Shown: piece after piece, positions 23,701 through 56,101 of the stretch
How the letters are laid out: each line of letters opens with the position of its first letter
Position numbering within the stretch: position 1 is the stretch's first letter
NCBI RefSeq assembly: GCF_037042905.1
Contig: NC_087251.1
Span: forward strand, 18,044,001 to 18,108,000
Source: Lytechinus pictus
Taxonomy: Eukaryota
Length of the DNA: 64,000 bases
Reading direction: 5' to 3'
Notes under the pieces: model-generated
The model's input: only the letters and a program-made list of their open reading frames with translations
Told to the model about the DNA's origin: nothing
Databases searched by the model: none
Position numbers and translations under genes: made by a program

Positions 23701-26700
23701 AGCAATATGCTCCATATGTTCAATTTTTCTCAATTTTTTTCAAATCAACATTTTTCTGGGGTGGACTTGACCTTTAAAGGCCAAGTCCACCCCAACAAAA
23801 AGTTGATTTTAATAAAAAGAGAAAAATCCAACAAGCATAACACTGAAAATTTCATCAAAATCGGATGTAGAATAAGAAAGTTATGACATAATAAAGTTTT
23901 GCTTAATTTCACAAAACAGTTACATGTATATGCACATCCTGGCTGGTATGCAAATGAGGAGACTATGACATCATCCACTCACTATTTCTTTTGTACTTTA
24001 TTACATGAAATATTCTAATTTTCTTCTCATTGTCAAGTGATACAACAATTAATTCCTCCCTGAACATGTGGAATTAGCATTGTTTAATACTATATGGTTC
24101 AGTCAAGTTGGTCCTTATTTTCAAATCTGTAAAAAATGAAATATTGTATAATTAAAACAATAAAAAACAAAAGAAATAGTGAGTGATGGACATCATCTAC
24201 TGAGTCACCTAGTTGTGCATATCACTGTTTTGTGAAAAATAAGTGAAACTTTAAATGTCATAACTTTCTTATTTTACATCCGATTTTGATGAAATTTCAG
24301 CACTATGCTAGTTTGATTTTTCTTTATTTATTCAAGTCAGCATTTTCCTGGGGTGGACTTGACCTTTAACTTACATATTTGCATTTGTACATTTCATTTT
24401 ATATGATAATTAACTCTGTAAAGATATCATTTACTGATAAATCTCATACAAAGAATGTTTATACTCAGGAGCTGCACTGCAAGAATATTGATTCCATTTA
24501 TGTAAGCATGCACAACAAATTTTCATTGTTAAACAAAACATAAAATATTTACAAGATAGAAGTACAGAAATTGTCAATTAAAAAAGCTCTAGTACAAAGG
24601 CCATCCCAAAATCCCAATACCAAAATCAGAAATAATACCACTACTCTCATCAGCCCCGATTAATTGTTCCTGGTGAAGGGCTTTGGGGTAAACAACTACA
24701 AAGTACTAGGTACAAATTTTCATCTAATGATAAAATAAAATAATGTTAAGCAAGGCTCCACATTAACTTTTTTTGGTGGTGGCCCGTTCGGGCCACCAAA
24801 ACCATCAAATAATTTTTTTTGGTGGCCCGATATTAAAGTTTGGTGGCCCGAAAAATATAAAGAAAAACATTAAAAATGAATAAAACAAACTTCTGAAATA
24901 TTAATTCTGCAGCCACTACCACAGCACTAAGTTACTTTCACTTTATACATCTTGTACGTAAACCTTGTTTCCTGTTATTTTACTTTGCTAATTGATCATT
25001 GTTTCTATCGTTGTAAAAATGAAATGATTGAAAGTGAATAAATGAATTGTATTGTTTGCTGGTTGTGTGGACTTTTTTTTTAAATCTCTGTATAGAGATA
25101 ATGGTAAAGTAAATAAATAGTGCATAGCAAACTCAGATAGATGTACAAAACAATGGTTTTTCCTTCCTTCCTCTTTGAATCCTAAAACCTAGATTATGCA
25201 TGCCCCAAATCCAGTTTATTTCTGTTTTCTCTTTTGCAGCATATTATAGAAGGAGAAAATCACAGAAAAATATGCTGCAAAATTAGAACAATGCATAAAA
25301 GGGGGAAACAAACAAAAATAATTTTCAAAAAGTATATTACAAAAAGAAAACAAAAATAATAAAAGAAATTAAGTGAAATAAAACAAAAGAAAGAAAATGA
25401 AGAAAGAAAAAAACAAAGAACAGGGAAAAAAAGAAAAAAGAAAAGAAAAAAATTAGAGAAAAAAGGAAAGAAAATGAAAGAAAAATTAATAAAACAAAGT
25501 TAATATAAAAAAGGGGAAAATTAAGAAGCCATGACATATATTTTTTAACAGCTGTGGCAACAGTCTATTCTGACTGGAATATAATTAAAAGCCAAGCAAA
25601 TAATTTTCACTTACCTTTTGGGAATGGCACATTTCGATTTTTATATCCTTTAGTTTGTATTATTTTATTTTCAGTAGAAACATATTTTTTTATCAGGCAT
25701 ATTCAATGGGAAGGGGTATAAATGGTTTTAACCACTGTAAAAAAAAATGAAAGAAAAAAAAATAAGAAAACGGCAAAAATTATATCTGGAAAAAAAGTGT
25801 GAGAAAAGTCCTTCCCTATATTTGCCAAAATGTTGGGAAAAAAAAATCACATTTCATATCAATGAAATGCCTTCCCAAAGTATTTACTTTCTCAAGAGTG
25901 GTTTAAGAAGTCATTTATAAACAAGAAAGAAAGAAACTGTCTGTTTGTTTTTGGCTAGAAAATACACAGCTTCGAAAGAAACCAAGTATCAACATACATA
26001 CAAATGCACACGTGGGACTGTGATGTACTTGCCTATGTGTTTTTATGTGTATTCATTCATGTGGAAATCGGTCTTTTTGAGTCAAAAGAGAGGTCATAAT
26101 TCCTCTTCTTAAGACTAAATTATCAGGGTACACCAGATTTTCGTAATATAGACTGTAGAATTGCATTTCATTGGTGTAAAATGTGACTTTGACTTAGATT
26201 TTCAAAGTTCTGTGGAAGATTTCTCAGCAGCAACATTTTTTATCGCAGCTCCCTGAGTCTGAATAGGCTGAGCTAGATATTAGAGCACAGGGGCCCGTTT
26301 CTCAACACCGTCATAAGTCTAACTTCTTGACTAAATCAGAGATAGTGAGCTACTTGTCCGCTAACCGTTTCACAAAGCCCTCTTTACCAAGATCGGGTAC
26401 AACAACCTCACTAAATATTTATGACACCTCCGAACCTGTCTTAACTTCTTTCTTAATGACGTAGTGGCATCACGTGGGTAGACTATGACATGCGAAAGTG
26501 CCTAGAAATTTTAAAATTATAATCTTACGTAATCAATCATAGTGGTTGAAATTACATCACAAAACAAGTGGGTTAATGCATTCAATGATAATTGTAATAC
26601 AAAGAAACTATAAAAACTGTTGGTAAACGCCACAAAACCATTCATTTTGAAATAAGTAAAATGATTTAATCTAAAAAGATTCTACCACGTCAGGCCATCC

Positions 26701-28624
26701 ATAATTGAACTCGTATTTGTTGTTTTCAGACCCCTATTAACAGTTGGATGAATTATATCTCTAATTTATGCATATAATTTGTCCAATATCGTATTTTCGG
26801 TATCAATGATTAAAAATGTTCCGTTAAACTATATTTTGATGACGTTTGGAATCGTAAAAGTCCGTATAGTTATCGTCATTTACAAAGAAAACCGTTATGG
26901 TTTACTTTCGTAAACTATTAAAATTGGGTCTCCCGGGGGTACCCATCTCAACGTCCACAAGCGATTTTTTAGTCATGAAATGAATTATTCATAATTTAAT
27001 TTTCTCTGCAATTGAATGCTCCAGTCTTCATGGTCTAAGTATGTATGATGCATAATTAACCTGTGCTATTATTTTGAAAAGATTTATTTCCCAATTTATC
27101 ATAATATTTGCAATTTTGTCATAATTTTTCTTTTTGAAAATTATGCTATTTTGATAGTATCGATATCAAGGTATTCTAGTTAGGAAGCCTTTCGAGAAAC
27201 AGGTTTAGTAAGATTGGAACTAACTCTGTGGTTGGTGGATAAAGATATGACTAACTTGTCCATGTGTTGAGAAACGGGCCCCAGCTAGCTAGTATGCAGT
27301 GGCTTCATGCAAAGCTCACGCCAGCCGGCCGGCGCGGCTGGCTGGATAATAGCTATACTGTATGCTATAGCTGTAGGCCTAATATGCAAACTTTGTGTGT
27401 AGATCAACAAAAAGGGCGCATGACGAACTGGCTTGCAATTTGAGCTGTAGAAAGTTGATAAATGCGTGCAAAATTGGGAGAAAAATTGCGCTACTTTGAA
27501 AATTATTGGTTGCCCGATTCGGGCCACCAAAACTTAACATTTTATCAATAATGGTTGCCCGAGGTGAATTTTTGGTGGCCCCGGGCCACCGCTAATGTCG
27601 AGCCTTGTGTTAAGTAATTAAAAAAGAAAGGAAAGAAAATAGAAAGAAAGAACTTCAAAGAAGGAAGATATACATGTATACTAGATCTTTAAAAAAAAGG
27701 AAAGAATTAAATAAATAAACAAAAAGATGGACAGACAGATAGATGATAGAGAAGAAAGAAAGATAGAAAGAAATAGAAAGAAAAGAAACAAATAGATCTA
27801 AAAATAAGGGGGGGGAAGGTTCCAAGAAAAAAGGACAGAAAAGAAATTTAAGAAAAAGGGAGGAAAAAAAACCCAAGAAAAAAGGGAAAAGAGAATTTAA
27901 TATCATTATCATTTGATCTGTTTAGAAATATTTTCCATGAATGTAGGCCTACTTTTTCTTCCTTCCTTTCTTCCTCCTTCATACAACATAGATTTACATC
28001 CTTTCCTTTCGTTCTTATCAGATTCAGAGTTATCCCTCTTTCTTTCTGTTTCTTCTTTTACTTTCTTTAATTCTTCTTTTCTTTCTTTCTTCCTTCCTTG
28101 CTTCAATTCAGTTTATGACCGTAACTCACAGCACCGTCTTTAATTATAATTCAAATCTAGATAAGTAGCGGATCTGGGTAGGGGCACATCCAAACCGCCC
28201 CCCCTCCTTATTTTGAGAACCATAAAATACATATTTGTTTGTGGAGAACATTGGCATTGCATGATTGTGCATAATTAACAGGCAAGTGAAGATTTTTTTT
28301 TTTTTTGGGGGGGGGGCTTGTCAAAATTTTCTGGCGACAGCCATGACCATCGGGAATGAAGACTTCGATTTGCCTCGTTCATTGAATGAGTGGGTGCAAC
28401 AAGCCCCACGATTCAATTCTGATTCAGTTCAAGTTAACGACACCGTTGTGACGGTTGTCGTTTTATACTCGTTAGCTTGTTATCTTGATTAAACAGCACG
28501 TGAAAATATACGAATGGGACCGATTCAAACCAGGTTAAGAAAGTATCTACTCACCGACTCCAAATTCGCCGATTACAAGTACTTTATAAAGATGTTCTAC
28601 CACTGTTCTTTCGGCGGACGACAT
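11792..28624 (-). CDS. RAB32: Rab32/Rab38-family small GTPase, 10 coding exons, 230 aa (possibly the invertebrate Rab32LO paralog)
   Basis: GT-AG exons read by hand with consistent phases: 28624-28555, 22575-22571, 22269-22242, 21233-21137, 20711-20655, 19807-19775, 18506-18479, 17206-17132, 16745-16637, 11982-11792 (693 nt including TAG). Protein: MSSAERTVVEHLYKVLVIGEFGVGKTSLIRRYTEGYFSPNYKLTIGVDFALKSLDWDENTKVNLQLWDIAGHERFGHMTRVYYKYAIAAVIVFDLSRPATFDSVLKWSTDVHEKVMLANEQPVPILLLANKCDLPD...GWFGTSAKDDTNVGDAMSYLVETIL...AKCCPI. All G boxes are present, with Rab32/38-type IGVDFALK and WDIAG motifs and a C-terminal CCxx prenylation motif. Exact paralog is uncertain. Confidence 0.93.
12652..13070. mobile_element. 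MITE in the last Rab intron
   Basis: CATAAGATTCGGGTGAATTTCTAT vs ATAGAAATTTACCCGAAACTTATG, plus an inner inverted block AAAGAACAAAGCTACCAAGAA / TTCTTGGTAGCTTTGTTCTTT. Confidence 0.65.
13178..13326. mobile_element. ~150-bp MITE with TA TSD, copy 1
   Basis: TA|CCTCAGTCACA ... TGTGACTGAGG|TA. Confidence 0.75.
14235..14867. mobile_element. Tc1/mariner-like MITE
   Basis: TA|CAGTGTGAGTAAAAAAAACCTTGACACCT ... AGGTGTCAAGCTTTTTTTACTCACAC; long imperfect inverted arms. Confidence 0.7.
15229..15617 (+). repeat. Direct tandem duplication of ~195 bp in a Rab intron
   Basis: GTGGACTTC(A/G)AATTATGAATACATAAA...GAGTGCAAATAAAGAAAATAAAAAG occurs at ~15229-15418 and ~15424-15616. Confidence 0.85.
16943..17045 (+). 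mobile_element. Degenerate tRNA-derived SINE fragment
   Basis: Pol III B box GGGTTCGAATCC followed by a TGCACTCAAC..GTGTAGTGAATGGATACCTGGCAGG SINE-core-like segment. Confidence 0.45.
19641..19758. mobile_element. Short palindromic MITE next to Rab exon 6
   Basis: GTTTCATAAAGCTGTTTGTAAGTTAAGA ... TCTTAACTTACTAACAGCTTTATGAAAC. Confidence 0.65.
22571..22575 (-). CDS. RAB32: 5-nt microexon (GAAAG) of the Rab gene encoding the G-K of the P-loop
   Basis: Minus strand reads TGATCACAG|GAAAG|GTAAAT. Exon 1 ends GTC G (phase 1) and exon 3 starts ACA TCA CTC (phase 0); these 5 nt restore both the frame and GEFGVGKTS. Confidence 0.88.
23086..24365. mobile_element. Two tandem copies of the TTAA/AGG MITE sharing one TTAA (23774-23777); the first is truncated and interrupted
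   Basis: ...GACCT|TTAA|AGGCCAAGTCCACCCC ... GACCT|TTAA; full copy at 23778-24365. Confidence 0.8.
23105..23325. mobile_element. PIF/Harbinger-like MITE with CTG TSD nested in a TTAA-MITE
   Basis: CTG|GGGGGTGTTTCACAAAGATTTAAGTATGACTTA ... TAAGTCATACTTAAATCTTTGTAAAACACCCCC|CTG. The empty site GCACATCCTGGTCGG is visible in copy 1 at ~3232-3247. Confidence 0.85.
24751..27607. mobile_element. hAT-like non-autonomous element in Rab intron 1
   Basis: TIR CAAGGCTCCACATTA / TAATGTCGAGCCTTG, flanked by duplicated TGTTAAG (7-bp exact match; hAT typically gives 8). Repeated subterminal GGTGGCCCG motifs at both ends. Confidence 0.75.
26291..27281. mobile_element. Harbinger-like element with CAG TSD nested in the hAT-like element
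   Basis: CAG|GGGCCCGTTTCTCAACAC ... GTGTTGAGAAACGGGCCC|CAG. Confidence 0.85.
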
Positions 28625-29370
28625 ATTTGTCACTCAAATTTCAAATTATCGCAAAATGCTTAAATCGTCATTCGTGGGCTTGACAAAATAGGAAATAAAA
28701 ATCACTCATCCCGACTTACGAATTGTGAGCATCATATCGGTAGGCACTTATGATCCAAGTTTGAAAGGAGACTCGTAAAATGACGTCAGTCTCGCCGATG
28801 AATATTCATTAGATCGTGGTCGTGCGTGTTCAATACACACTGCGTGCAGGCATGCAGATAGTTATATGCGAGGAACTTTGGCTCCAGAGACAAGTTGTCA
28901 AATAACGTGTGTGTGTGTGCGTGTGTGTACCATCGGCTGGTAGTATGCCATGCTGTCTAAGACTTCAAACGCGTCGGAGAGAGTGCATGGCAATTCGGTA
29001 AAACGAAGTTTCCCATATAAAGAGATAATAAAATAACACTATGTACAGTACGCCCGGGGGGGCCACTTACATTGACGAGTGGATACCATGCGCGACCAAA
29101 AAAACACGTAAAAAGGATGTCTTTTTCAAGAGAGGGCACGTACGTAACGTGATAAGGGTGTCAAAAACACAAAAATATTGAAAAAAGGGTATCTATTTCC
29201 AGTACGTTGAGAGGCAAATGTCAGATCATGGGAGGCAGGAGTACAATCAGGTTTTTTGAAAGGGAAGAATAGTGTAGAATAAAAGGTATTATATATAGCC
29301 AAATGATCTAGGTGAGGGAAGTGAACAATGATGTTTTTTAAAAAAAAGAATGAATATACCTTACCTGAAT

Positions 29371-30683
29371 ATTATGGTGAAGCCAATTTAAAAGGAGGTG
29401 AGACAAGTTTCAATGGAGGTTTTAAAAAAGAATAAACTGTATTATGGTGAAGCCAATTTAAAAGGAGGTGAGGCAAGTTTTAATGGAGGTTTTTAAAAAG
29501 AATAAACTGTATTATGGTGAAGCCAATTTAAAAGGAGGTGAGGCAAGTTTCAATGGAGGTTTTTTAAAAGAATAAACTGTACTACAAATTATGGTGAAGC
29601 CAATTTAAAAGGAGGTGAGGCAAGTTTCAATTGAGGTTTTTAAAAAGAATAAACTGTTCTACAAATTTAAAAGGAGGCGAGGCAAGTTTCAATGGAGGTT
29701 TTTAAAAAAAGAATAAACTGTACTACAAACTATGGTGAAGCCAATTCAAAAGGAGGTGAGGCAAGTTTCAATGGAGGTTTTAAAAAAAGAATAAACTGTA
29801 CTACAAATTATGGTGAAGCCAATTTAAAAGGAGGTGAGGCAAGTTTCAATTGAGGTTTTTACAAATTATGGTGAAGCCAATTCAAAAGGAGGTGAGGCTA
29901 GTTTCAATGGAGGTTTAAAAAAATAAACTGTATATGGTGAAGCCAATTTAAAAGGAGGTGAGGCAAGTTTCAATTGTCGAGGTTTTTTTAAAGAATAAAC
30001 TGTACTACAAATTTGAAAGGAGGTGAGGCAAGTTTCAATGGAGGTTTTTAAAAAGAATAAACTGTATTACAAGTTATGGTGAAGCCAATTTAAAAGGAGG
30101 TGAGGCAAGCCTCAATGGAGGTTTTAAAAAAGAATAAACTGTATTATGGTGAAGCCAATTTAAAAGGAGGTGAGGCAAGTTTTAATGGAGGTTTTAAAAA
30201 AGAATAAACTGTATTATGGTGAAGCCAATTTAAAAGGAGGTGAGGCAAGTTTTAATGGAGGTTTTTAAAAAGAATAAACTGTATTATGGTGAAGCCAATT
30301 TAAAAGGAGGTGAGGCAAGTTTCAATGGAGGTTTTTAAAAAGAATAAACTGTACTACAAATTATGGTGAAGCCAATTTAAAAGGAGGTGAGGCAAGTTTC
30401 AATTGAAGTTTTTAAAAAGAATAAACTGTACTACAAATTTAAAAGGAGGCGAGGCAAGTTTCAATGGAGGTTTTTAAAAAAGAATAAACTGTACTATAAA
30501 TTATGGTGAAGCCAATTCAAAAGGAGGTGAGGCAAGTTTCAATGGAGGTTTTAAAAAAAGAATAAACTGTACTACAAATTATGGTGAAGCCAATTTAAAA
30601 GGAGGTGAGGCAAGTTTCAATGGAGGTTTTAAAAAAAGAATAAACTGTACTACAAATTATGGTGAAGCCAATTTAAAAGGAGG
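29371..30683 (+). repeat. Tandem ~70-bp modular satellite in the left foldback arm (~18 units)
   Basis: Unit TTATGGTGAAGCCAATTTAAAAGGAGGTGAGGCAAGTTTCAATGGAGGTTTTTAAAAAGAATAAACTGTA. Variants add CTACAAA or lack the TATGGTGAAGCCAA module. Confidence 0.95.
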
Positions 30684-30699
30684 TTTTTAGGGCTGTTCA

Positions 30700-31433
30700 G
30701 TGGCCAGGGGGGGGGGGGTTGATTCCACCCCCCCCCCCCCAAGACCTCGGTCGCCGATGGCGCGAGTGCTGCAAAAATTTGCACGCTGGTAGTGTGCGAT
30801 GTGATCTACAAGGCTGTATGACAAAATTTTCAAAAATAATGAGATTTTATTTGATATGAGTTAATTATGCTAATTTATGCATAAATCATACTTTTTGTTC
30901 TAATTCACTAAATAAAGCTCCTAGAATGCAAATTTTTTGTAAAATTATTCTTTGTAGCATTCTTAACAATCTCAATTGAAAAAAAATTGTTTTGGAAATC
31001 AATTTCTTATGTATTTCATTGTTTTATAAATTTCTTATGAATTTCTTTGTTTTTCAACCTTTTTTTTTTTTTTTTTTTTTTTTACCAGATTTATTGCACA
31101 ACCTTTTTGAAGCATAATTATGCTAAAATCAATTGATTTCAGCTGTTTAAAGTAAAAATAATCATATCTTTATGACTAAGATGAGAAAACTCAATTCGCA
31201 TTGACTTTGTATATAAAATCACGTTTAGGAACAATTTTTGGTCAGATATGCACTTACAAAATGTTGCGTAATTTCAGAACCGTGTACATGGGGTCGTAAA
31301 TTTGGTCTCAAAAGATGCGCAAGACTTTTTTTTGCAAGTGGTGCAGTAAAAAAAATTTGCGCGGCGGAATGATCGCAGAAAATGTAGAGGGGGGAGTTGA
31401 TTCAACCCCCCCCCCCGGCCTGTTTAGGGTTAA
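30700..31433. mobile_element. piggyBac-like MITE nested in the foldback element (left end damaged)
   Basis: Right end ...GTTTAGGG|TTAA; polyG-TTGATTC(C/A)A-polyC hairpin motif near both ends. Confidence 0.5.
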
Positions 31434-32778
31434 GAATAGTTGGTCTAATCAACTTTAGACTTGGTCTAAGTGTGTATAATTGAGTAGAGACGATCTGATC
31501 AGATTTTGGGGTTAAAAGTCAATGACTCATCAAATACATAATATATCCTGTTCTTGCCGTAACTCAGTAAAGAATCATGGATGGGATCAACTTCATATTC
31601 AAAGTTTAGCTAAGGATCTGATTATATTGCAAGATTACAGATATGCAGTCGTTATATAAATTCAAATAGTTCATTTTCATATTAACTGTACAGTTGTCAA
31701 TAGGGTGAAATTCAAGCTTGGTTCCTGAATGCACATTTAAGGCAGATAATCTCAGTAAATAGTAGTAGTTCAAGTTCATAGGTCACAGACATCAATATGC
31801 ATGTATACCCAAAATATCTCCTATTCCCAAGTCTTATAGAATCATTTGAGGGTTCTACTTCCAATATGGCTTATCTGTGCATATGACTGGTGAAATGTTA
31901 GCCCATGAGGTCAAAGTGCATGGTATAACAGTATGTCCTCAAAAAGCGTATTCTTTCTTCCAAGTGATATTTGTGACTACAGATGTTTTGCATATGTAAT
32001 GAGCTTGATGAAGACCAAAACACAAGCCACGAGAGGATTAGGATGAATCTGCACTCTGACTGATAACTTTTTAATCTCCTGAATTCTTTGAAAGGATCAA
32101 TTTGAAAATTACCTCTTGTGTGAGTGAAGATTTTTAGTCAAATTTCTATTGTCAGCAAGGTCATGTTAAAAATGTAAATATATAATATATTCTTGGTCTA
32201 GCAAAGGCAGTGCCATAAATTTTGACTGCATGTAGTTGAGAATCCATCTAGTTAGTCATAAAACATCAACGGCTAATTGTATCCATTCAACTTAGGGTTT
32301 CTTATTCCTACGATACTTGCTAATGTTAAATCATGGAGAATCACCTGTGTAAATAATGATACATTGTTTGTTAGCATTAATCGGCATTGAGGCTGATAAA
32401 TTTCTTTGATAACTATTTGATGCAAGATTATATGACCTTTGTGTTTTATTCAGTATTTTTAGACTGTCTCATATCATTTTGAACATAATTTGCGACCATT
32501 TTTGCTGCCCACTCAACAGTCTTTGTAGATGTTTGTGCAAAAACTTGATTAGAATGCATGCCGTTATCACACAGTACTTGCTAACTTTTATTATCTTTTA
32601 TCATGATCCTAGGCCTGCCAGTACTGAAAATAAACGTATTTTAAACTGTATTATAGCGTATATTTTTATTTACTCAAGCTGCAGTTGCTTTCCATGATCA
32701 TGAATTGGTTTTATAATACTTGCTGTTAACTAATGTAATTGTCACTTGTTTTTTCTAACAGCGAGAATATATTGCTAT

Positions 32779-33221
32779 ATGTGTCCAGCCACCCCAATAC
32801 CAACAATAAATACATTGATTTAAAGATTCTCATTGATCTTGAGCGATCACATCCTAAGCTGTAAAATGATTTATCTTGTTAATATTGATCAATAATATCC
32901 CTCGCTAGTACTTCATTGAATGCAGAAGAAGTTTGGTGAGAGCTTCAACAAATAAGAGAACAAGATTTGGGGTTCACTTAAGCATGCGATGTGTAATATG
33001 TAGTTCAACTACTTAGCAGTGAGCAAAACACGGATATCAAAGTCTTGTATTTTGTCTTCAACTTTTACAACCTCACATTTTGACAGTATGAAGAAATTTC
33101 TTTTTTTTTTCGGATAAACCAATATTCTAAATATGCGTTTGGAAAACTGAATTACTATTTTGGTTATTTTCTACGAACCTTCCCTGGCAACTTATTGTTG
33201 ATATTTGGGTGGCTGGCCACA
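32779..33221. mobile_element. MITE inside the foldback spacer
   Basis: ATGTGTCCAGCCACCCCAATACCAACAATAA ... TTATTGTTGATATTTGGGTGGCTGGCCACAT imperfect inverted termini. Confidence 0.6.
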
Positions 33222-35219
33222 TTTGTTTTGAGAAAAAATATCAAAGAGTATATGAAAAAAATATTTATGTAAAAAAGCTTGCCTAGCTGTTGGTATTTTC
33301 TTCTATTGTACTTTGTCATGTAACTCTGGTAGATTTCATTTCGTTACACAAAATGGGGTTCAGTATTCAGAAAAACCATTAACCTTGCCTCAACCACAAC
33401 AGTACTTGCCAAACTGGATAAATCAACATTATATCAAGCTGTGTAGAAGAACTTAATGATCATGTAGATACCATTAAGTGCATACATATGTAATGTCTTT
33501 CAAGCTGTATGACAAAAATATTCTTTTCCATCCAACATCAGCTTCTACTATTTTTTAAGGTTAGTTTTTATTGTCATGTTGGCAAATTGTGAAATAGTTC
33601 ATGTTGAAATATGTTGTATTACCTGTCATGCATTTGTAATGTTATTTTTTTAGAATATATTCTGTCATCATTTTCAGTACATAAAAGTTTATTCAATGTA
33701 TGCCTTTACCAAAGTTGGCCATAAGCACAGTGGGTACCAACTATCACTGAAGACAACACAACAATTACTCAAAATATATGCATAGCCTTATGAATGTACA
33801 AGTCAATAAAATCTACTATGACTACATAGCTTTTTTTTGTGCAACACAGTCATATTTCATTTGGATCAATTCAAAATTGAGTGGTGTTTTGGGGGTAATG
33901 CTATGGTAACTGCAGTTCTGTTGTCCTCTGACAGTTGGTGTTGTAAGGATGTGATTGGCAGTGTGTGGACGTCATGTTATAAGAGAAAAAAGAAAGTTAA
34001 AGTGAGAGTGTTGGCTTTGAAATGGACTCAACCTATGAAAATTAAAGTTTGTGCTGCAGAAACTGGTGTGGTAGTGGGATGATAATGATGATGAGGAACA
34101 GGGCCGGTATTCAATGCTACTCTTAAAGCCACAATTTCAAGTATATTTTACTCAGTATTTTGCAAAAGTAAAATACTTATCCATCTTTGGTATTCAATTG
34201 CATTTTTTTTTGGCTAAATATTTTGCTTAAATGTAAGTCAGCCATCTACTAGACTTAAGTCTACATATACAAAAATGATACGCACAGAAATACATTCACA
34301 CATTTGGCACTATTTGGCTCAAAATTTATAACATCACAATGGGTATTAGTATTTAGTTCAATTTGGATAAGGTAAATTCTGAGATCTGATCTGCATACAA
34401 GTTTAAGCATTTTGATAAGCCAGCCAAATTGCTAAGTAAAATACTTACAAAATCAAAACTTAGAATTTAATAGGCGGCCGAGGTATTATTTTCTTCCAGA
34501 GGACATGTACAGATTTCTTGTTGACAAAGGATGACATGATGATTATTTTGCAAATATGGCTTATTAAAAAATATATTATGTATATTCCATTTCAGTGACA
34601 ATTGCATTTTTGGGGAGGGGATATTACGTATTTGGGAATGGAAAAGTTCAAAATTAATGCAAACTTAACCTATTTACGCAGGGGGGGGGGGGGGGGGCTC
34701 TGAGCTCTGCGATTTAAAAAAAAAAGTCTTTTGCATGTTTTGAGACCAGTTTTGCGAAGCCCGGGTACTGGGTTCTGAAAATTACCAAACAATTTGTAAG
34801 TGCATATCAGACAAAAATGGCTCAAAATTGTGATATTTGTGTACCACGTCAATGGAATATGCGTTTTCAACCAAAATTCATGAATGCCTAATTGTTTTTA
34901 GTTTTGTTGAACTAAACTGATTTATGTTATGCTGTTACGAGAGTCCGAGCATCGTTGAAAAAAAACAATGCAATACAAAGGTAAAAACACAAGAAATACA
35001 TTATCGAAGAACACCACAAAGAGTTTCTAAACCAAAAATTAGAACATTTGGAGCTTTATTTAGGGAGTTAGAGGAATAGGTATAGTATACTAATTATGCA
35101 CAAATGAGCATAATCAATTAATAGCAATTTGCATGAAATAAATAACTACACAATTTTGTGGATTATTAAAAGCAATTGCGATCTTTTTCTTCACTATTCA
35201 TTGTTTTTAGAAACCTCAT

Positions 35220-37257
35220 TGTAGACTTGCCTCATGCACCTCTCAAGATGGCTTCATCATTTGAATTATATTCTACACTTATCATTCTTTAAAAAAAATC
35301 ATTGTAGACATGCCTCACCTCCTCTCAAATTGCCTTCACCATAACTTGTAATACAGTTTATTCTTTTTAAAAACCTCCATTAACTAATTGCCTCACCTCC
35401 TTTTAAATTGGCTTCACCATAATTTGTAATACAGTTTATTCTTTTTAAAAACCTCTATTGAAACTTGCGTCGCCTCCTTTTAAATTTGTAGTACAGTTTA
35501 TTCTTTTTTAAAAACCTCCATTGAAACTTGCCTCACCTCCTTTTAAATTGGCTTCACCATATACAGTTTATTATTTTTAAAAACCTCCATTGAAATTTGC
35601 CTCACCTCCTTTTAAATTGGCTTCACCATACAGTTTATTCTTTTTAAAAACCTCCATTGAAACTTGCCTCACCTCCTTTTAAATTGGCTTCACCATAATT
35701 TGTAGTACAGTTTATTCTTTTTAAAAACCTCTATTGAAACTTGCGTCGCCTCCTTTTAAATTTGTAGTACAGTTTATTCTTTTTTAAAAACCTCCATTGA
35801 AACTTGCCTCACCTCCTTTTAAACTGGCTTCACCATAATACAGTTTATTCTTTTTAAAAACCTCCATTAAAACTTGCCTCACCTCCTTTTAAATTGGCTT
35901 CACCATAATACAGTTTATTCTTTTTAAAAACCTCCATTGAAACTTGCCTCACCTCCTTTTAAATTGGCTTCACCATATACAGTTTATTCTTTTTAAAAAC
36001 CTCCATTGAAACTTGCCTCACCTCCTTTTAAATTGGCTTCACCATAATACAGTTTATTCTTTTTAAAAACCTCCATTGAAACTTGCCTCACCTCCTTTTA
36101 AACTGGCTTCACCATAATACAGTTTATTCTTTTTAAAAACCTCCATTGAAACTTGCCTCACCTCCTTTTAAATTGGCTTCACCATAATTTGTAGTACAGT
36201 TTATTCTTTTTAAAAACCTCTATTGAAACTTGCGTCGCCTCCTTTTAAATTTGTAGTACAGTTTATTCTTTTTTAAAAACCTCCATTGAAACTTGCCTCA
36301 CCTCCTTTTAAACTGGCTTCACCATAATACAGTTTATTCTTTTTAAAAACCTCCATTAAAACTTGCCTCACCTCCTTTTAAATTGGCTTCACCATAATAC
36401 AGTTTATTCTTTTTAAAAACCTCCATTGAAACTTGCCTCACCTCCTTTTAAATTGGCTTCACCATATTATACAGTTTATTCTTTTTAAAAACCTCCATTG
36501 AAACTTGCCTCACCTCCTTTTAAATTGGCTTCACCATAATACAGTTTATTCTTTTTAAAAACCTCCATTGAAACTTGCCTCACCTCCTTTTAAATTATTG
36601 GCTTCACCATAATTCTTAGTACAGTTTATTCTTTTTAAAAACCTCCATTAAAACTTGCCTCACCTCCTTTTAAATTGGCTTCACCATAATTTGTAGTACA
36701 GTTTATTCTTTTTTAAAAACCTCTATTGAAACTTGCGTCGCCTCCTTTTAAATTTGTAGTACAGTTTATTCTTTTTAAAAACCTCTATTGAAACTTGCGT
36801 CGCCTCCTTTTAAATTTGTAGTACAGTTTATTCTTTTTTTAAAAACCTCCATTGAAACTTGCCTCACCTCCTTTTAAATTGGCTTCACCATAATTCTTAG
36901 TACAGTTTATTCTTTTTAAAAACCTCCATTGAAACTTGCCTCACCTCCTTTTGAATTGGCTTCACCATAATTTATAGTACAGTTCATTCTTTTTTAAAAA
37001 CCTCCATTGAAACTTGTCTCACCTCCTTTTAAATTGGCTTCACCATATACAGTTTATTCTTTTTAAAAACCTCCATTGAAACTTGCCTCACCTCCTTTTA
37101 AATTGGCTTCACCATATACAGTTTATTCTTTTTAAAAACCTCCATTGAAACTTGCCTCACATCCTTTTAAATTGGCTTCACCATAATACAGTTTATTCTT
37201 TTTAAAAACCTCCATTAAAACTTGCCTCACCTCCTTTTAAATTGGCTTCACCATAAT
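35220..37257 (-). repeat. Same ~70-bp satellite, inverted, in the right foldback arm (~28 units, degenerating inward)
   Basis: Repeated AACTTGCCTCACCTCCTTTTAAATTGGCTTCACCATA..CAGTTTATTC, the reverse complement of the left array. Confidence 0.95.
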
Positions 37258-39199
37258 ATTCAGGTATAAGGTATATATTCATTCTTTTTTTTAAAAACAT
37301 CATTGTTCACTTCCCTCACCTAGATCATTTGGCTATATATAATACCTTTTATTCTACACTATTCTTCCCTTTCAAAAAACCTGATTGGAGCTCCTGCCTC
37401 CCATGATCTGACATTTGCCTCTCAACGTACTGGAAATAAATACCATTTTTTCAATATTTTTGTGTTTTTGACACCCTTATCACGTTACGTACGTAACGTG
37501 CCCTCTCTTGAAAAAGACATCCTTTTTACGTGTTTTTTTGGTCGCGCATGGTATCCACTCGTCAATGTAAGTGGCCCCCCCCCCCCCCCCCCGGGCGTAC
37601 TGTACATAGTGTTATTTTATTATCTCTTTATATGGGAAACTTCGTTTTACCGAATTGCCATGCACTCTCTCCGACGCGTTTGAAGTCTTAGACAGCATGG
37701 CATACTACCAGCCGATGGTACACACACGCACACACACACACGTTATTTGACAACTTGTCTCTGGAGCCAAAGTTCCTCGCATATAACTATCTGCATGCCT
37801 GCACGCAGTGTGTATTGAACACGCACGACCACGATCTAATGAATATTCATCGGCGAGACTGACGTCATTTTACGAGTCTCCTTTCAAACTTGGATCATAA
37901 GTGCCTACCCATCATATCAGTGGAATTCTAATTCTATGGTGTTCTCAATAAATGTCGAAACAAAATTCTGAGCTAAACTAAGTCAAGTTACTAGTTAGTT
38001 AGTTACAGCACAGATGCAGAGCCGTAAAACTCCCTCAAAAATACAAAGATGACAAGCTTGCTATGTAAAAATGTAAGAAATTTATCTCTTGTGAGGAGAA
38101 CTATGTGTGTCTTTATGTGAATGAATGGCGTTGTAATTGTGAGTTTTAGAGAAATGCCCAGGCAAGCTGAGCCTGAGGCAAGGCCAAGGGCCAAGGACAG
38201 GTTAAGGCACTATAGGTATCACAGGCCTAACTCATTCCCCATAGACTCGTGTGTTAAATTGGCATTTTAAAAAATTCATAAAAAATAAGGGTGAAATTCG
38301 GGGGTCGAATGTTTACTACCAGTGGATAGGATTTTTATCTGGCAATCCATATCTGACCAGAAAAGGGTCCCTCGACCGGCTCATTTTAAAAATAAATTGG
38401 CGTGTTTGAAGACACCGTCGGGGGGAGCAGATTCATCACCTCAAACAGCAAAATAGCCCTAATCCTTCCGCCAGTCAAAATATAGTCCAAAGTTGGTGAT
38501 ATTTCTTCCCAATTTGGGAAAAGGAAGTTCAATAATTACCAAAAATAGAATCAGTGTTAGATGGACAATCATATGCATACACTTTGTTAATCAGCCATAT
38601 CAAAATTTAAAAAATAGCAATGGGTTGGCTCGAATGAATATCTATGGCCTGCCTCTAGTGATTAGGCCCGTGAAGCCCTAACGTTAGGCCAAAGACGTTA
38701 CGGCTACGCACGGGATGCGGTCGGTGGCGCGCTGGCGGGGGCCGGGGCGGGCGGGCGGCGGCAGCTGGTGTGGACCTAGACAGCTTGCAGCCGTCTGTTT
38801 CGAGGAGTTTTTTAATCATATTTTCTCCTCGTACACTGGCGGTACACAGATGGCTCGCGATCGTGCAGCTGCCATTATTTAGGGGGTAAACAATGCAAAA
38901 TCCCCCCGACGCAGGGCTCATCAATTTTTTTCTTTATTTCATAAGAACTGGGCCAAAATGAAGATTATATTATTCCGTTTTGGCCTGATGAAATGCACCA
39001 AAGCAAAACGGAAAAAAATTAACTTAAATGGGGGAAAAACAGTGACTTAACTTCGGCTGTCGCGCAACTCCCGCGGCCTGGTTTATCCGAACTTAATAAA
39101 CATATCATCATATGGCCATTGTCTTTGATACGTCCCTGTACTGTAATCTGTACAGATCGAGTTAGAACTTTGGTCTCTGTAATTGGTGACTGGAGCCAC

Positions 39200-39432
39200 T
39201 CACACGTCTAGACCAAAACAAAAGCTTCAGTCTCTGTAGTTTGATTATTTCGCTGAACTGCGTTGGCTCACTCACCAATACATATAGTAAAATAAATCCC
39301 CAGAAACGACGGTTATTCCTGTCTATCACACGTCATGCAGGTATTGTGACTAATACTATACTAGGACTGGAGCCAACGGAGTTCAGCGGAACAACCAATA
39401 AAACAGAGACCGAAGCTTTTGGTCTAGTGTGG
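39200..39432. mobile_element. Palindromic MITE-like element upstream of ATP5S
   Basis: CTAGACCAAAA..AAGCTTCAGTCTCTGT..CGCTGAACTGCGTTGGCTC vs GAGCCAACGGAGTTCAGCG..ACAGAGACCGAAGCTTTTGGTCTAG. Confidence 0.65.
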
Positions 39433-39822
39433 ACCGTGCAGACAGACGCTAGATCAAGGCGAGTAGGCGACATCGACAGGAACGGCTGACAAGTCATGAA
39501 AGGGGTACTTTAGTTTAGGGCCGCACACCTACTGTCTACTACCATCCATGAGCATGATGAGTGCCCCCCCAAGTTGGCTGCACTTACCTGCTTACTCCGA
39601 AATTCACATGTAGATTTCTTTTTCATGACTGTCTTAAAGTTTGCGTTACTCCGTTAGAATTTCTTGCTTTTTTTATAATGCAAATAACTTTTTTTTTTTT
39701 TTTGTGAGTGGGAATTATAAATGAAATTTGTTACCTTAGCCTAGCCCTAGGGCTAGGCTTAATAAAGCTCGCTAAATTAAATTCTTCTATTTCTAATTGT
39801 GTTTGTTTTGTGTACAAAGTTG

Positions 39823-42800
39823 ATGGAGGGGAAGTTTGTCACCAGGTATTAATTATTAAATATTATTATTATTAAATATAAGAGTCGTGAACAGCTGCTT
39901 CAGTTGTCTGATAGTAATAAATCTCATATTAGTGAGGTGATGAATTGTGGAACAATTAAGACCTATAACCCAAAATGAATAGATAGAACAGATTAAAGGA
40001 AAAAATATCAAATGATAAGGAAGTGAAATAAGATCAAAATGAAGCTATTGGAAGAAGTATGGTAATTCATTGGCTCGATGAAAAGAAAAAAAGAGATAAA
40101 TTTGAGAAAACCAGAAACGAGGTGATAGAATGACAAAAGGAAAAGAATGGTACTTTCAATTGCAGAAAAAAATATTCCAGACCCAACATTAAAATGGAGA
40201 ATTAAACAGAAGGAATTCAAGAAAGTCAATAGAAAGAAAATGAGATATTCCCTGTTTCCTTTGACTATTTATAGCTTAATGATGAGAGCTTTTTGAGTAG
40301 ATCTATGCCTACATTGTTATGCTAATGTTGGTCTACTTTTTTGTCAATGGAACCTTGGGAAATTTCTATTTGCTATTGGACCTTTCAAAAGACCCTCTTT
40401 TCCAATTTCGCTGGCAAATTGTTGTAGGCAAATGTGAGTGTTTGAGAAGGATATGGCAAATTGGTTATGGCCTATTTATTTAAAACAGGTCTTGCTTTGT
40501 ATCTGTCTAAAAAAAAATAGACACCTTGTTGGAGTTTTCCTGTACATTTGCCACAGTGCTTGTCTTGGATTTCTTGAGTTTTTTTTTTTTACCTCAAGAA
40601 TGCATTAGAATATGAATGTTATTATTTTTCTTTTTTGTATATTGCTGTTTGAAGATTTGCAATCCAGGTAGATCCATTGCAAGAGGTATTCTACTGCAGC
40701 ACCATCTCCAGTCACGTCCACTCTGGGGGATGTTAAATGCTGTCTTTAATCAGTAAGTTATGCTTTTATTTCGATAACTCTGCTAATAGGGACATGTATC
40801 CCTATGTATCGAGTGCTATATAAAAATACTATGGTTAACAATAACGAGATTAAAAACCTGCAATTTTCTATATCGGGTACTTCTGTAGTCGTGCAGTTTT
40901 GAAAGTAAAACCAATCATCAATCACAAATATGACCACAACAAGGAAAGAAGCCAAAATTGAAAATTCATTATTAATATTATACTTTTGCTGTTTTGCATT
41001 TAGTTTCTTGCTCTGAACAGACATTAATCGTCAGAAATGAAAGGCTGAAAATTAGCACTTAACTTACAATTGGTGGCTATACATTGAATGGTACTAGTCC
41101 AGATAATAATTTTGCATTTACATATATTGTCACAAGACACACGTGTAATTCTCAAACAAAATGAAATTACAGTACTTTACAGTACTTTATGTAAGACCTG
41201 TCCAAAAACAAAATATATGTAGAATGACATTGCTCCATCTCTCTGAAATAAGACATACAAAATCCACCCTTTTATTCATTCCTCTCCCTCTCCCTTCCCC
41301 TCTCTCATCTTCTCTCCATCTCCCAATTCTATCCCTCTTGATCTCCTAGGGTAGACCGATCCAGAATCAAAGAGGTAGGTCCAGACCGAGCTGCAGCAGA
41401 ATGGTTGTTGAGATGTGGAGCATCTGTGAGGTTCAACAATTTTGAGAGGTGGACAGTAGATTACAATCTTTTGCCGACTGGAGGCAGAGACAAACTCAAG
41501 ATTTTTGAAGTTGATGCAACAGATTCATCGATCATGCACATTGGCTTTGAACACTTTGGTAAGTTCTTAAAATAAGCTGGACTTTGTGGTGATCAAATCT
41601 GTCCACAGAAATCCTTATCTGCATCTCTGAAGAGAATGGTTCTAGGTTTTTCACTCATTAGTGACATGAACTTGAGATTGAGAATATAATCATAGATATC
41701 CTTTGAAAAATAACAAAATGAATGCTGGACATTTTTTAAGTTTGTGGAAATGCAAGATATAATTGTTGACTTTTTAAAGTTTGTTGATAGCATTTTTATC
41801 ATTGAGCCCATTGTGGTTGCATTTCAATGAGTGATTGGCAGGAAAATGCTAGAACCTCTTACTGTTAATCTGTTTACGTTATTATTACTGTAGAGGGAAT
41901 AAAACACCTTCGATATCTGAAGCTTCACCACTGCACCTATCTACAGGACATGTGTGTCTCCAAGCTAGTGCTTCTCAAAGACTCTCTTGAAGAACTTCAA
42001 ATAAGCAGCTGTGGTGATGTCACAGATAAGGGGCTTGCAACACTCAATCACCTTCAGTAAGTGCATGATAGCGATAGTTAACCTAAAAGCTAATGTATAA
42101 TTGTGATGTCACAGCTATTCATTCCCATGGCAAAATGGTTTGTAAATAGTTTCAAATTGCCCAAAATGTGTCTCTGATTCAAAGGTTGGAAACAGTGAAA
42201 ATCCCTGGATATAACTATGATACACGCCTGGTGCAAGGATTCTTGTTTGGAACCATCGCTATGCTGTAAAAAGACTGTGACATCATCACTTCAGAACTCT
42301 AATTGAGTTTTGTGCTCTTTTCAGATTATATGATGGACAGGGGAAAAGGAATTATTTTTGCTCAGTGGATAGATTTGTTCTTCTGTTCATACTGAATTAC
42401 ATTGTTTATTGAACCCAAATGCATTTTATGAGGGCTTTTTGCAATATATATGAACTTGGGCTGAAAGAGCCTTAACCCCTGGGTATTTTCCTTGGCTAGT
42501 GGTTGGTTGATATTTTCTAAAGGGTAATTTCAAAGTGAACAAAGTGTCATTTATGGTAGATTAGGCTGTAGTTTGTCTTTAAAAATAGTTTAATTTTGGC
42601 CCCGAGAATAAAATTTGAAAGAAATTTTCTTGCAATAATTGAGAAATATTGATCATAGACAATCCATGGATTTTACTTTGATGGTTAAGGTTCCAGAATC
42701 ATGAAAATTGTACTAAGTCCGCTCAGATCATTTGAGAGTCAAATGCAAATTATAGGAGCATCACAAATTTCTAATGAAACATTTCAGCAAGCTTTTGTTA

Positions 42801-43143
42801 AATTATAAGTGCAGACATTAAAAAACAAGTCCTTTATGTGGATATTTTTGTGGTAATGTTTTTCTTGTATAATGTCAAATATGTGAAGCTCTCACAAGGA
42901 TTGTTTTCATCCATCCTGCAAGCACACTTCCATTTAATGCAAACACAAATATCTTATTCTTCTTACAGTAAACTGGAGAAGTTGTTTCTGTGTGACCTCC
43001 CAGCTGTGAAGGACATGGAAGGGATCATTAAGATTCTTGGATCGGCTTTGCCAAACTGTGAAATCAGGTATCTTTCTCTGGAAGGACTCAAAGATTTAAA
43101 GAGACTTGGTAAAGATAATATCAGAGAGACTTTCGATACATAG
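39823..43143 (+). CDS. ATP5S: ATP synthase subunit s / factor B (ATP5S, DMAC2L), mitochondrial leucine-rich-repeat protein
   Basis: Exons ~40655-40752 (..SRPLWGMLNAVFNQ), 41350-41558 (VDRSRIKEVGPDRAAAEWLLRCGASVRF...DATDSSIMHIGFEHF), 41894-42056 (EGIKHLRYLKLHHC...ISSCGDVTDKGL), 42969-43143 (KLEKLFLCDLPAVK...*). These match ATP5S motifs (WLNAVFN, VGPDRAASEWLLRCGA, SCGNITDKG). The first coding exon is uncertain: 39823-39845 (MEGKFVTR) or an ATG at ~39496. Confidence 0.9.
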
Positions 43144-43344
43144 AAGATTCATATTTCCTATGCATAATGAGTGTTGTGATTGTTTCCAGCCCAGGAGATG
43201 AGTGATCTCATCCTGCATGAGGACTTGAATTGACTTCCCAACAGGAAGGGTTGTTCTTCCATGACTAGTATGGCATTTCTTCTGTGAAGGACAAGGCCAA
43301 GCAATATTCTCAGATCAAACCTTCTAAACTGAAATAAATCTCAT

Positions 43345-44801
43345 TTTTGTCTCACCTGCATAGCAGAGTGAGACTATAGGCGCCGCTTTTCCGACGGCGG
43401 CGGAGGCGTCAACACCAAATCTTAATCGAAGGTTAAGTTTTTGAAATGACAGCATAACTTAGAAAGTATATGGACCTAGTTCATGAAACTTTGCCATAAG
43501 GTTAATCAAGTATTACTGAACATCCTGCCTGAGTTTCAGGTCACATGACCAAGGTCAAAGGTCATTTAGGGTCAATGAACTTAGACCATGTTGGGGGAAT
43601 CAACATCAAAATCTTAAACTAAGGTTAAGTTTTTGAAATGACAGCATAACAAAAAAAAATATATGGACCTAGTTCATGAAACTTGGAACTAATGTTAATC
43701 AAGTATTACTGAACATCCTGCCTAAGTTTCAAGTCACATGACTAAGGTCAAAGGTCATTTAGGGTCAATGAACTTTGGCCAAGTTGGGGGTATCTGTTGA
43801 ATTACCATCATAACTTTGAAAGTTTATAGATCTGATTCATGAAACTTAGACATAAGAGTAATCAAGTATCACTGAACATCCTGTGCAAGTTTCAGGTGAC
43901 ATGACTAAGGTCAATGAACTTTGGCCAAGCTGGGGGTATTTGTTGAATTATCATCATAACTTTCAAAGATTATATAGTTTATAAAATGTGGATATAGGGG
44001 TAATCAAGTATCACTGAACATCCTGTGCGAGTTTCAGGTCACATGACTAAGGTCAAAGATTAATGGTCTTTGATCATGTTGGGGGTATTTGTTAAATAAC
44101 CATCATAACTCTGAAAGTGTATGGATCTAGTTCGTAAAACTTGGACATAAGAGTAATTAAGTATCATTTAACATCTCATGGGAGTTTTAGGTCACATGAC
44201 CAAAGTCAAAGGTCATTGAACTTTGGCCATTTTGTAGGTTATTATTAGATTGCTGTCGTAACTTTCAAAGTTTATAGATATAGTTTATAAAATGTGGCTA
44301 TAGGGGTAATCAAGTATCACTGAACATCCTGTGCGAGTTTCAGGTCACATGACTAAGGTCAAAGATTAATGGTCTTTGATCATATTGGGGGTATTTGTTA
44401 AATAACCATCATAACTCTGAAAGTGTATGGATCTAGTTCATAAAACTTGGACATAAGAGTAATTAAGTATCATTTAACATCTCATGGGAGTTTTAGGTCA
44501 CATGACCAAAGTCAAAAGTCATTGAACTTTGGCCATTTTGTAGGTTATTATTAGATTGCTGTCATAACTTTCAAAGTTTATAGATATAGTTTATAAAATG
44601 TGGATATAGGGGTAATCAAGTATCACTGACAAGTCTTAGGTCGCATGATCAAGGTCAAATGTCATTTATTGTCAATGAACGTAGTATTGTATCATTATAT
44701 GAATGGTATTTTGGTGAATAATCATTTTATAGTAGTTTTCAAAGACAGCACTGCTGCTATATTGAATTGCAGGTGAGACTGCCAGAGGCAATCCACTTGT
44801 T
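43345..44801 (-). mobile_element. Same HINE-like family, copy 2, just downstream of the ATP5S stop
   Basis: TTTTTGTCTCACCTGCATAGCAGAGTGAGACTATAG ... GCAGGTGAGACTGCCAGAGGCAATCCACTTG, the reverse complement of the copy 1 ends, with more internal units. Confidence 0.75.
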
Positions 44802-55238: not shown

Positions 55239-55676
55239 GCCGTTGATTCTTATTAAATTTCAGTCTTTGAAATGAATTGTACACTCCCTCCTTGACAATG
55301 GGTATGAATCAATCGCTTTTGATACATGGATGTGAGTACGTGGGACCAAGCTTCAGATTGATATCACCGACAGTCAGAGACTTTGTTTACAATGCATTGC
55401 TCCGCCTCCGCTCTCAGCTCTGTGTATCGTGCATGCACTACGTGTGCCAAGCTAGCTCAACACGTGTGCATTGTCACTTCCGGGTTCAGGGGAGAACAAT
55501 ATTATCAGGAATTAGATCATTATGGTGACGCTAATACTCTCCATCCTTGCTATTTTTATGGTGTTTATTGTCTGTACCGTCATCTGGGCAGTATGTAGAT
55601 CCATGGAGCCAACTAAGCATAAGGTTTAAAGTAAAAAAATACCCAAAGATCAGGACGGAGTACTCCACAACCAGCG
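55239..55676. promoter_or_regulatory. Bidirectional promoter / 5' UTR region between AP5M1 (-) and SELENON (+)
   Basis: Divergent ATGs only 438 bp apart. Locally CpG-rich, with an ETS-type ACTTCCGG (~55476), an E-box CACGTG (~55462) and GTGCATGCAC. Confidence 0.7.
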
Positions 55677-56060: not shown

Positions 56061-56101
56061 GTATTCCAATTCCAACTTTCATAATTATAGTCATGAAATG
56101 T

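What the first reader, a model, noticed from the sequence alone, without database searches (positions are those of the whole stretch)
28730..37918. 9.2-kb foldback element with satellite-filled inverted arms and a perfect 9-bp TSD
Seen in sequence: CATCATATC flanks both ends. Each arm has a ~630-bp unique outer domain followed by an inner ~70-bp tandem array, and the arrays differ in length (~1.3 vs ~2.0 kb). The ~4.5-kb spacer holds only other TE fragments. Established knowledge: modular long TIRs with 9-bp TSDs characterise Foldback/Mutator-type elements. Inference: this is a young non-autonomous element, mobilised in trans as a unit, carrying a satellite and able to form a multi-kb hairpin; the family may be uncatalogued.
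Basis: partly seen in the sequence, partly recalled or inferred. Interest (0 to 1): 0.7.

Follow-up and report, generated by a model that had tools for sequence, protein, structure and literature searches.

The report
Foldback transposon splitting a shared promoter
A 9-kb gene-less jumping element with mirror-image, repeat-filled arms sits between the start codons of two back-to-back sea urchin genes; it is a known kind of element, and its interest lies in whether its ends now drive those two genes.

Summary
The structure is real: a 9,171-bp element (28739-37909) between two exact 9-bp target copies. Each arm has a ~630-bp outer domain (324 bp perfectly inverted from the tip) and a ~70-bp array (about 18 vs 25-28 units). 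No coding trace was found. It fits a non-autonomous Tetris/Rehavkus-type foldback, probably Mutator-mobilised (Merlin not excluded). This scan has noted at least five other satellite-armed foldbacks in this genome (unchecked notes, none matching by sequence), so the class is ordinary.

New here: (1) It sits 105 bp from the Rab32B start codon and 130 bp from the ATP5S start codon, so it splits a head-to-head gap of about 244 bp. A spliced ATP5S contig identical to this haplotype reaches to 32 bp from the element's tip. (2) Both arms carry the same ~150-bp piece of a very abundant repeat that a relative's copies lack, which points to arm-to-arm copying. (3) The tip is shared with a far more abundant family in that relative.

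Not shown: an empty allele, TSDs of other copies, a transposase partner, youth, hairpin formation in vivo, or that the whole spacer is TE-derived.

The parts
28555..28624 (-). Rab32B-like gene, first coding exon (ATG at 28624, 105 bp from the left TSD); the gene runs leftwards to 11795
   Evidence: tblastn of P0056 (named Rab-32B-like, Lytechinus pictus): residue 1 maps to 28624; further exons at 22269, 21234, 20710, 19854, 18511, 17224, 16766, 11983
28730..28738 (+). Left target-site duplication, 9 bp
28739..29052 (+). Left arm, terminal part of the outer domain; begins GG; CpG-rich (o/e 1.17 vs 0.44 for the window); one CRE-like octamer at 28781 (motif recalled)
   Evidence: on the right-arm twin, depth in the relative's DNA contigs is 27,000-66,000 at 37852-37859 against 12-34 in single-copy bins
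29053..29206 (+). Nested piece of a very abundant repeat, bounded by a 7-bp direct repeat (29046-29052, 29200-29206); present in both arms
   Evidence: 7-bp repeats; depth 2.1 million in bin 37434-37577; a contig of run X9 skips 37422-37619
29232..29355 (+). Two degenerate array units at the outer edge
   Evidence: alignment to the unit scores 58 vs a maximum of 39 in 100 shuffles
29370..30684 (+). Left tandem array, ~70-bp unit (58-79 bp variants), about 18 units; ends abruptly with no degenerate inner edge
30685..31433 (.). Nested ~750-bp MITE with its own G/C-run inverted ends; intact end plus TTAA at 31430-31433, damaged end at the array junction; piggyBac-like by TTAA and CCC end (hallmark recalled)
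31434..34664 (.). Spacer core, 3.2 kb, AT-rich and CpG-depleted (o/e 0.31), no coding trace, origin unknown
34665..35159 (.). Truncated, diverged relative of the left MITE in inverted orientation, TTAA at 34665-34668, different end sequence
   Evidence: 322 of 426 aligned bases identical (76%), score 245 vs a maximum of 54 in 30 shuffles
35197..35310 (-). Degenerate array units at the inner edge of the right arm, similar to those at the outer edge
   Evidence: score 87 vs shuffle maximum 36; outer vs inner edge 81 vs maximum 41 in 200 shuffles
35311..37258 (-). Right tandem array, about 25-28 units, with arm-specific variants and a 489-bp higher-order repeat
37259..37909 (-). Right outer domain (nested repeat piece 37433-37595 between 7-bp repeats at 37426 and 37596); ends CC
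37910..37918 (+). Right target-site duplication, 9 bp
37941..38072 (+). ATP5S (ATP synthase subunit s / factor B) first exon as far as a transcript contig shows it; ATG at 38049, 130 bp from the TSD
   Evidence: X1 record 6: bases 1-132 = 37941-38072 and 231-439 = 41350-41558, 0 differences; the 98 bases between equal the predicted exon 2 length; N-terminus matches P0001

Best explanation
A non-autonomous cut-and-paste DNA transposon of foldback type, most likely moved in trans by a Mutator-superfamily transposase, was inserted as one 9.2-kb unit (or a shorter unit that grew later) into the short shared promoter of the head-to-head genes Rab32B and ATP5S. SHOWN: the anatomy, the 9-bp direct repeat, no coding trace, the position between two start codons, and multi-copy arms in a relative. 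INFERRED: (a) a staggered 9-bp cut made the TSD; (b) open promoter chromatin was the target; (c) the arrays grew from an older diverged tandem block by unequal exchange or slippage within each arm; (d) the outer domains are kept alike by repair that copies one arm from the other, which put the same nested repeat piece in both; (e) the left arm lost its inner edge in a deletion at a nested MITE; (f) the spacer core is captured host DNA or a decayed interior.
For: TSD exact only at 9 bp and only at the tips. Anatomy matches Tetris: flanking domain, variable tandem domain, non-coding middle, 8-10-bp TSD (PMC4079207 passages), and Rehavkus (PMC12581902 passages). Gene models are fixed by named proteins and a spliced contig. 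The gene pair shares a contig length in 5 of 5 urchin species listed and has near-consecutive accession numbers in 2 of 5. Arm homologues are multi-copy in run X9. The nested piece has 7-bp flanking repeats in both arms and is skipped in an X9 contig of depth 345, close to the 321-436 of the adjoining inner domain. Array variants are arm-specific: two motifs 0 left / 5 right, one 3 / 0, and 1 unit shared among 15 and 18 distinct units. Animal MULEs give 8-9-bp TSDs, favour genic regions and have non-autonomous copies with host-derived interiors (PMC5225508 passages).
Against: No empty allele, no second complete copy and no other TSD was seen: no genome is held, and only 24 of 1,527 loose-end rows were shown, none at the tip. 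No transposase was found (0 of 46 element ORFs; 0 of 12 read-through frames). The repeats here are ~70 bp and start 630 bp from the tip, unlike the 12-bp subterminal repeats shown to bind Muta1 transposase (PMC5499845 passages), so a binding role is not established. All reads of X21 (10 of 10) and X24 (3 of 3) and all X9 depth at 37859 carry another base, so they come from relatives of this copy. Accession numbers are not consecutive in 3 of 5 species. Summed contig depth is not a copy number (tool's own warning).
Confidence: 0.68

Rival explanations
1. Same insertion, but mobilised by a Merlin transposase (or another non-Mutator DDE enzyme).
For: Merlin has 5'-GG ends, 8-9-bp TSDs and often internal tandem repeats (PMC8101967 passages). 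Foldback shape has arisen in several superfamilies, e.g. Galileo in P (PMC3169594 passages).
Against: Merlin TIRs are reported as 24-462 bp, against about 2 kb or more here. Most foldbacks with a known enzyme are Mutator (PMC4079207).
Confidence: 0.2
2. Not one transposed unit: the spacer is native intergenic DNA, and two arm copies inserted separately in opposite orientation beside the two genes.
For: The core looks like ordinary host DNA with nested MITEs. The empty site was not seen.
Against: Separate insertions would not share one exact 9-bp direct repeat at the two outer tips (chance about 6e-6), and no second TSD pair was seen at the inner edges. The core is CpG-poor (0.31) while the Rab32B flank is CpG-rich (1.63), as expected if the promoter lies outside the element.
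Confidence: 0.06
3. Assembly artefact (mirror-image read or mis-joined repeat).
For: No listed run holds half or more of the queried stretch (0 of 24). No long read was laid across the element.
Against: A mirror artefact makes no direct repeat outside the arms. The arms differ in outer-domain bases and array variants. The genes on the two sides are neighbours in other urchins.
Confidence: 0.04

Closest known systems
Tetris (and MITE DAIBAM), Drosophila virilis (PMC4079207; passages and section 19 read)
   Same: Outer flanking domain, then a variable tandem domain, then a non-coding middle; 8-10-bp TSD; no transposase found; repeat unit related to the adjoining flanking domain; probable short high-copy derivative sharing the ends.
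   Different: Unit ~70 bp rather than 220 bp; no clear shared inner domain; nested repeat copied to both arms; sits in a bidirectional promoter. No sequence comparison was made.
Rehavkus foldback transposons (PMC12581902; passages read; placement in MuDR is recalled)
   Same: [quoted passage not shown]
Muta1 (Aedes aegypti) and Tm1/Phantom MULEs (PMC5225508, PMC5499845, PMC3169594; passages read)
   Same: 8-9-bp TSD, G-rich tip, repeat-bearing TIRs of unequal repeat number, non-autonomous copies with foreign interiors, genic insertion bias. The tip shares 6 bases with Tm1 motif A2 (too short to count).
   Different: Their repeats are 12-15 bp and start at the tip; their TIRs are about 150 bp; transposase partners are known.
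TU elements of Strongylocentrotus purpuratus (seen only as a citation in PMC4079207; structure recalled)
   Same: Sea urchin element with long modular inverted repeats and a variable middle.
   Different: As recalled, TU has short tandem repeats in the outer domain and an 8-bp TSD; here the outer domain is non-tandem and the TSD is 9 bp.
Maize Mu insertions with an outward-reading promoter (bioRxiv 10.1101/2023.06.05.543741, abstract read; 10.1101/2020.01.09.900282, passages)
   Same: Insertion at gene 5' ends; a TIR could supply transcription to the neighbouring gene in either orientation.
   Different: Shown in maize (20 of 33 alleles). Here it is untested, in an animal, and would act on two genes at once.

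Membership tests
Foldback-type non-autonomous DNA transposon | Long modular terminal inverted repeats containing tandem repeats of variable number | tested here: met
Foldback-type non-autonomous DNA transposon | Target-site duplication at the exact tips | tested here: met
   9 of 9 bases; exact only at length 9 among 6-13
Foldback-type non-autonomous DNA transposon | No intact transposase inside | tested here: met
   0 of 46 element ORFs (of 104 listed at 35 aa or more) and 0 of 12 read-through frames hit Pfam; small intron-split remnants could be missed
Foldback-type non-autonomous DNA transposon | Dispersed copies at other sites with their own TSDs | tested here: inconclusive
   Arm sequence is multi-copy in run X9 and present in X1, but no flanks of other copies were displayed; no other copy in the window
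Foldback-type non-autonomous DNA transposon | Empty allele with one target copy | tested here: inconclusive
   24 of 1,527 loose-end rows and 16 of 17,799 piece rows shown, none at 37909-37918
Mutator/MULE superfamily | MULE DDE transposase in an autonomous partner with the same ends | not testable with these tools
   No genome held
Mutator/MULE superfamily | 8-10-bp TSD and long TIRs | tested here: met
   One copy only; TSD size is shared with Merlin
Merlin superfamily | 5'-GG ends and 8-9-bp TSD | tested here: met
Merlin superfamily | TIR of 24-462 bp | tested here: not met
   Outer domain alone is 631 bp
Merlin superfamily | DDE_Tnp_IS1595 transposase in a partner | not testable with these tools
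   No genome held
Tetris, Rehavkus or TU as a named family | Sequence similarity to the family consensus | not testable with these tools

The most novel reading that the evidence does not exclude
The insertion cut a bidirectional promoter, shared by Rab32B and ATP5S from Diadema to Lytechinus, in two. Because the arms are mirror images, each gene now has the same CpG-rich transposon tip directly upstream and is transcribed from it. One foldback would then act as a symmetric replacement promoter for two animal genes, a two-sided version of the maize Mu outward promoter that lets these elements survive in housekeeping promoters. Hints: a transcript contig identical to this ATP5S haplotype starts 32 bp from the tip; the same run holds contigs with this element's own base at 37859 (depth 16); family reads at 37859 in the stranded run X21 run outward 8 to 2. 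None of this links a transcript to the inserted allele.
Probability: 0.2. Interest if true: 0.62.

Novelty: new member of a known kind. Interest (0 to 1): 0.38.

Why it matters
The element type is known and recurs in this genome, so the foldback alone is ordinary. The site gives it value: a 9-kb insertion in a gap of about 244 bp between two conserved genes is a natural test of whether a Mutator-type end can stand in for a promoter in an animal, on both sides at once. The copy also records how long TIRs evolve: a foreign piece copied into both arms, array variants confined to one arm, and old units left at the array edges.

Tried and rejected
Whole-genome copy search: no genome held. Tip pattern in metagenomes: 1 match, L001, a 21-base chance hit with no further similarity; viral contigs: 0. 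Earlier notes by sequence, tip and array: 0 look-alikes; near this place: 0. Rfam: 1 weak hit, mir-933, 25.6 bits vs gathering 100, E 0.07, on a G-run/C-run hairpin; rejected. Pfam on the element: nothing. Idea that the array unit came from the inner MITE: score 30 vs shuffle maximum 35; rejected. Idea that the two inner MITEs are an old inner TIR domain: not accepted, since they are 76% alike with different ends and unlike sequence beyond their TTAA sites; their mirror placement remains unexplained, and they are the only 2 copies in the window. Folding of the tip and of two units: z -0.64 and -0.99, no special structure. The bacterial promoter scan does not apply to this organism and found 0. 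Run search: no RNA holder on record among the indexed rows, and no run of organism A listed as DNA. The single read lay covered only the right outer domain and flank (37290-41600), so the arrays, spacer and left junction were not examined in reads. Paper searches (listings) showed no description of this family or locus; most subscription papers, Repbase and Dfam were not searched, and no supplements were read.
Full report
OBSERVATION. The 9-mer lies at 28730-28738 and 37910-37918 and nowhere else in the window. Only length 9, among 6-13, gives an exact direct repeat at the tips. Inverted identity is perfect for 324 bp inward and drops to 14 of 40 outward, so the ends were not chosen to fit the repeat. 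Chance by base composition is about 6e-6. The element is 9,171 bp. The outer domains differ by 3 substitutions in 629 columns and 7 indel events. The arrays have period 70, with 18.4 copies on the left and 25.0 on the right, plus further units to 35311.

ARRAYS. Units are 58-80 bp. Both arms share unit types, such as a short 62-64-bp form, but carry private variants: two motifs occur 0 times left and 5 times right, one occurs 3 times left and 0 right, and only 1 unit is identical among 15 left and 18 right distinct units. Degenerate units lie at the outer edge of both arms and at the inner edge of the right arm, and these edge units resemble each other (81 vs shuffle maximum 41). I infer that the arrays grew inside an older tandem block, each arm on its own. 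The left array has no degenerate inner edge and stops at a nested MITE.

SPACER. A ~750-bp MITE (30685-31433) and a truncated 76%-identical relative in mirror orientation (34665-35159) lie at the two inner borders, each with TTAA at its intact end (the piggyBac label is recalled). The 3.2-kb core has no significant match elsewhere in the window beyond two 30-38-bp hits at E 0.014, and is CpG-poor. Pfam found nothing in 46 element ORFs, of 104 listed, or in 12 read-through frames. Rfam gave one chance-level hit. 'Only TE fragments' is therefore shown for about 1.25 of 4.5 kb.

CONTEXT. The nearest named proteins are from the sea urchin genus Lytechinus. Residue 1 of a Rab32B-like protein maps to 28624 on the minus strand, with the whole gene to the left. 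ATP5S starts at 38049 on the plus strand: the predicted start and exon 2 give the N-terminus of P0001, and record 6 of run X1 joins 37941-38072 to 41350-41558 with 0 differences and exactly the 98 bases of exon 2 between. Without the element the start codons would be 244 bp apart. The two genes share a contig length in 5 of 5 urchin species listed; accession numbers are near-consecutive in 2 of 5 (L. variegatus, D. antillarum) and not in the other 3. I infer an old head-to-head pair with a shared promoter. The Rab32B flank is CpG-rich (o/e 1.63 vs 0.44 for the window).

OTHER RUNS. Of 24 runs listed, 20 hold part of 37290-43200 and none holds half. Four were laid on 37290-41600. In X9 (DNA by guess, organism B), single-copy bins have depth 12-34. 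The inner outer-domain has 321-436, position 37634 has 1,287, and the tip has 27,000-66,000 at 37852-37859. The tool warns that summed depth is no copy number, so I take only the order: a modest family with the long arm and a far larger one sharing the tip, as DAIBAM relates to Tetris. Bin 37434-37577 has depth 2.1 million. That piece is bounded by a 7-bp direct repeat in both arms, and one X9 contig of depth 345 skips it (37422-37619, 31 other letters). Record 1 of X1 also stops at 37425. The simplest reading is one insertion into one arm, later copied to the other; such arm-to-arm repair is proposed for Galileo (PMC3573991 passages). Loss of the piece in the relative is the less simple alternative. 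Against my reading: the junctions of an empty allele or of other copies were not among the rows shown (24 of 1,527 loose ends), and at 37859 all X21 reads (10 of 10), all X24 reads (3 of 3) and all X9 depth carry a different base. X1 has the window's base there at depth 16. X21 differs from the window at two ATP5S codons, so it is another haplotype and says nothing on this allele.

MECHANISM. Most likely (0.68) a Mutator-type DDE transposase made elsewhere bound the two ends and inserted the unit through a 9-bp staggered cut in open promoter DNA. Animal MULEs give 8-9-bp TSDs, lean towards genes and carry foreign interiors (PMC5225508 passages). More subterminal repeats raise Muta1 binding and excision (PMC5499845 passages), but those are 12-bp repeats at the tip, so the same role for this array is a guess. 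Merlin fits the GG ends and TSD but not the TIR length (PMC8101967 passages); I give it and other enzymes 0.2. Two separate insertions (0.06) and an artefact (0.04) fail on the direct repeat. 'Young' is not shown, because arm identity is reset by copying. A hairpin across a 4.5-kb loop is expected in denatured DNA but not as a cruciform in vivo (own knowledge).

COMPARISON AND NOVELTY. It works like Tetris (PMC4079207, passages and section 19), Rehavkus (PMC12581902 passages) and Tm1 (PMC3169594 passages). Membership of any named family could not be tested. Earlier notes of this scan report at least five other satellite-armed foldbacks in this genome, three titled with 9-bp targets (unchecked), none matching this one by sequence, and small elements in divergent promoters of other genomes. 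Eight paper searches listed no account of this family or locus. Verdict: a new member of a known kind.

MOST NOVEL READING. Each gene now faces the same CpG-rich tip (o/e 1.17, one CRE-like octamer 43 bp from the end; motif recalled). In maize, Mu ends start transcripts into the host gene in 20 of 33 alleles, in either orientation (bioRxiv 10.1101/2023.06.05.543741, abstract). The ATP5S contig begins 32 bp from the tip, but a contig cannot show a start, and the coding haplotype may also exist without the insertion. Family reads at 37859 run outward 8 to 2 in X21, from 10 reads only. I give the two-sided replacement promoter 0.2; if true it would deserve about 0.62. Overall interest 0.38.

Noticed in passing
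window 30685-31433 and 34665-35159: The only two copies of this TTAA-ended MITE family in the window sit in mirror orientation at the two inner borders of the arms, each damaged on the arm side; unexplained.
   Followed up: partly
window 30684-30702: The junction of the left array with the MITE holds short inverted pieces of the MITE's own end, like templated filler from break repair.
   Followed up: partly
window 32779-32809 and 33192-33222: A 31-bp inverted pair (28 of 31 alike) inside the spacer core; possibly the ends of an old 444-bp element.
   Followed up: no
window 38154-39449: ATP5S intron 1 is packed with high-copy repeats (depth up to 190,000 in X9).
   Followed up: no
window 41437 and 41504: Two amino-acid differences in ATP5S (N/K, F/V) between the window and X1 on one side and X21, X9, X24 and P0001 on the other.
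   Followed up: partly
window 3080-3650, 4146-4748, 23325-24373: Several ~600-bp self-inverted MITE-like copies, about 80% alike.
   Followed up: no
window 43409-44629 and 8635-9506: Related 153/193-bp tandem arrays at two places.
   Followed up: no
window 48800-49267 (-) and 55635-56084 (+): Exons of an adaptor mu-subunit-like gene (weak Pfam hit, E 0.011) and an EF-hand protein (E 6.5e-5); the names AP5M1 and selenoprotein N are recalled guesses.
   Followed up: no
window 61337-62650: A long GA-rich low-complexity tract.
   Followed up: no
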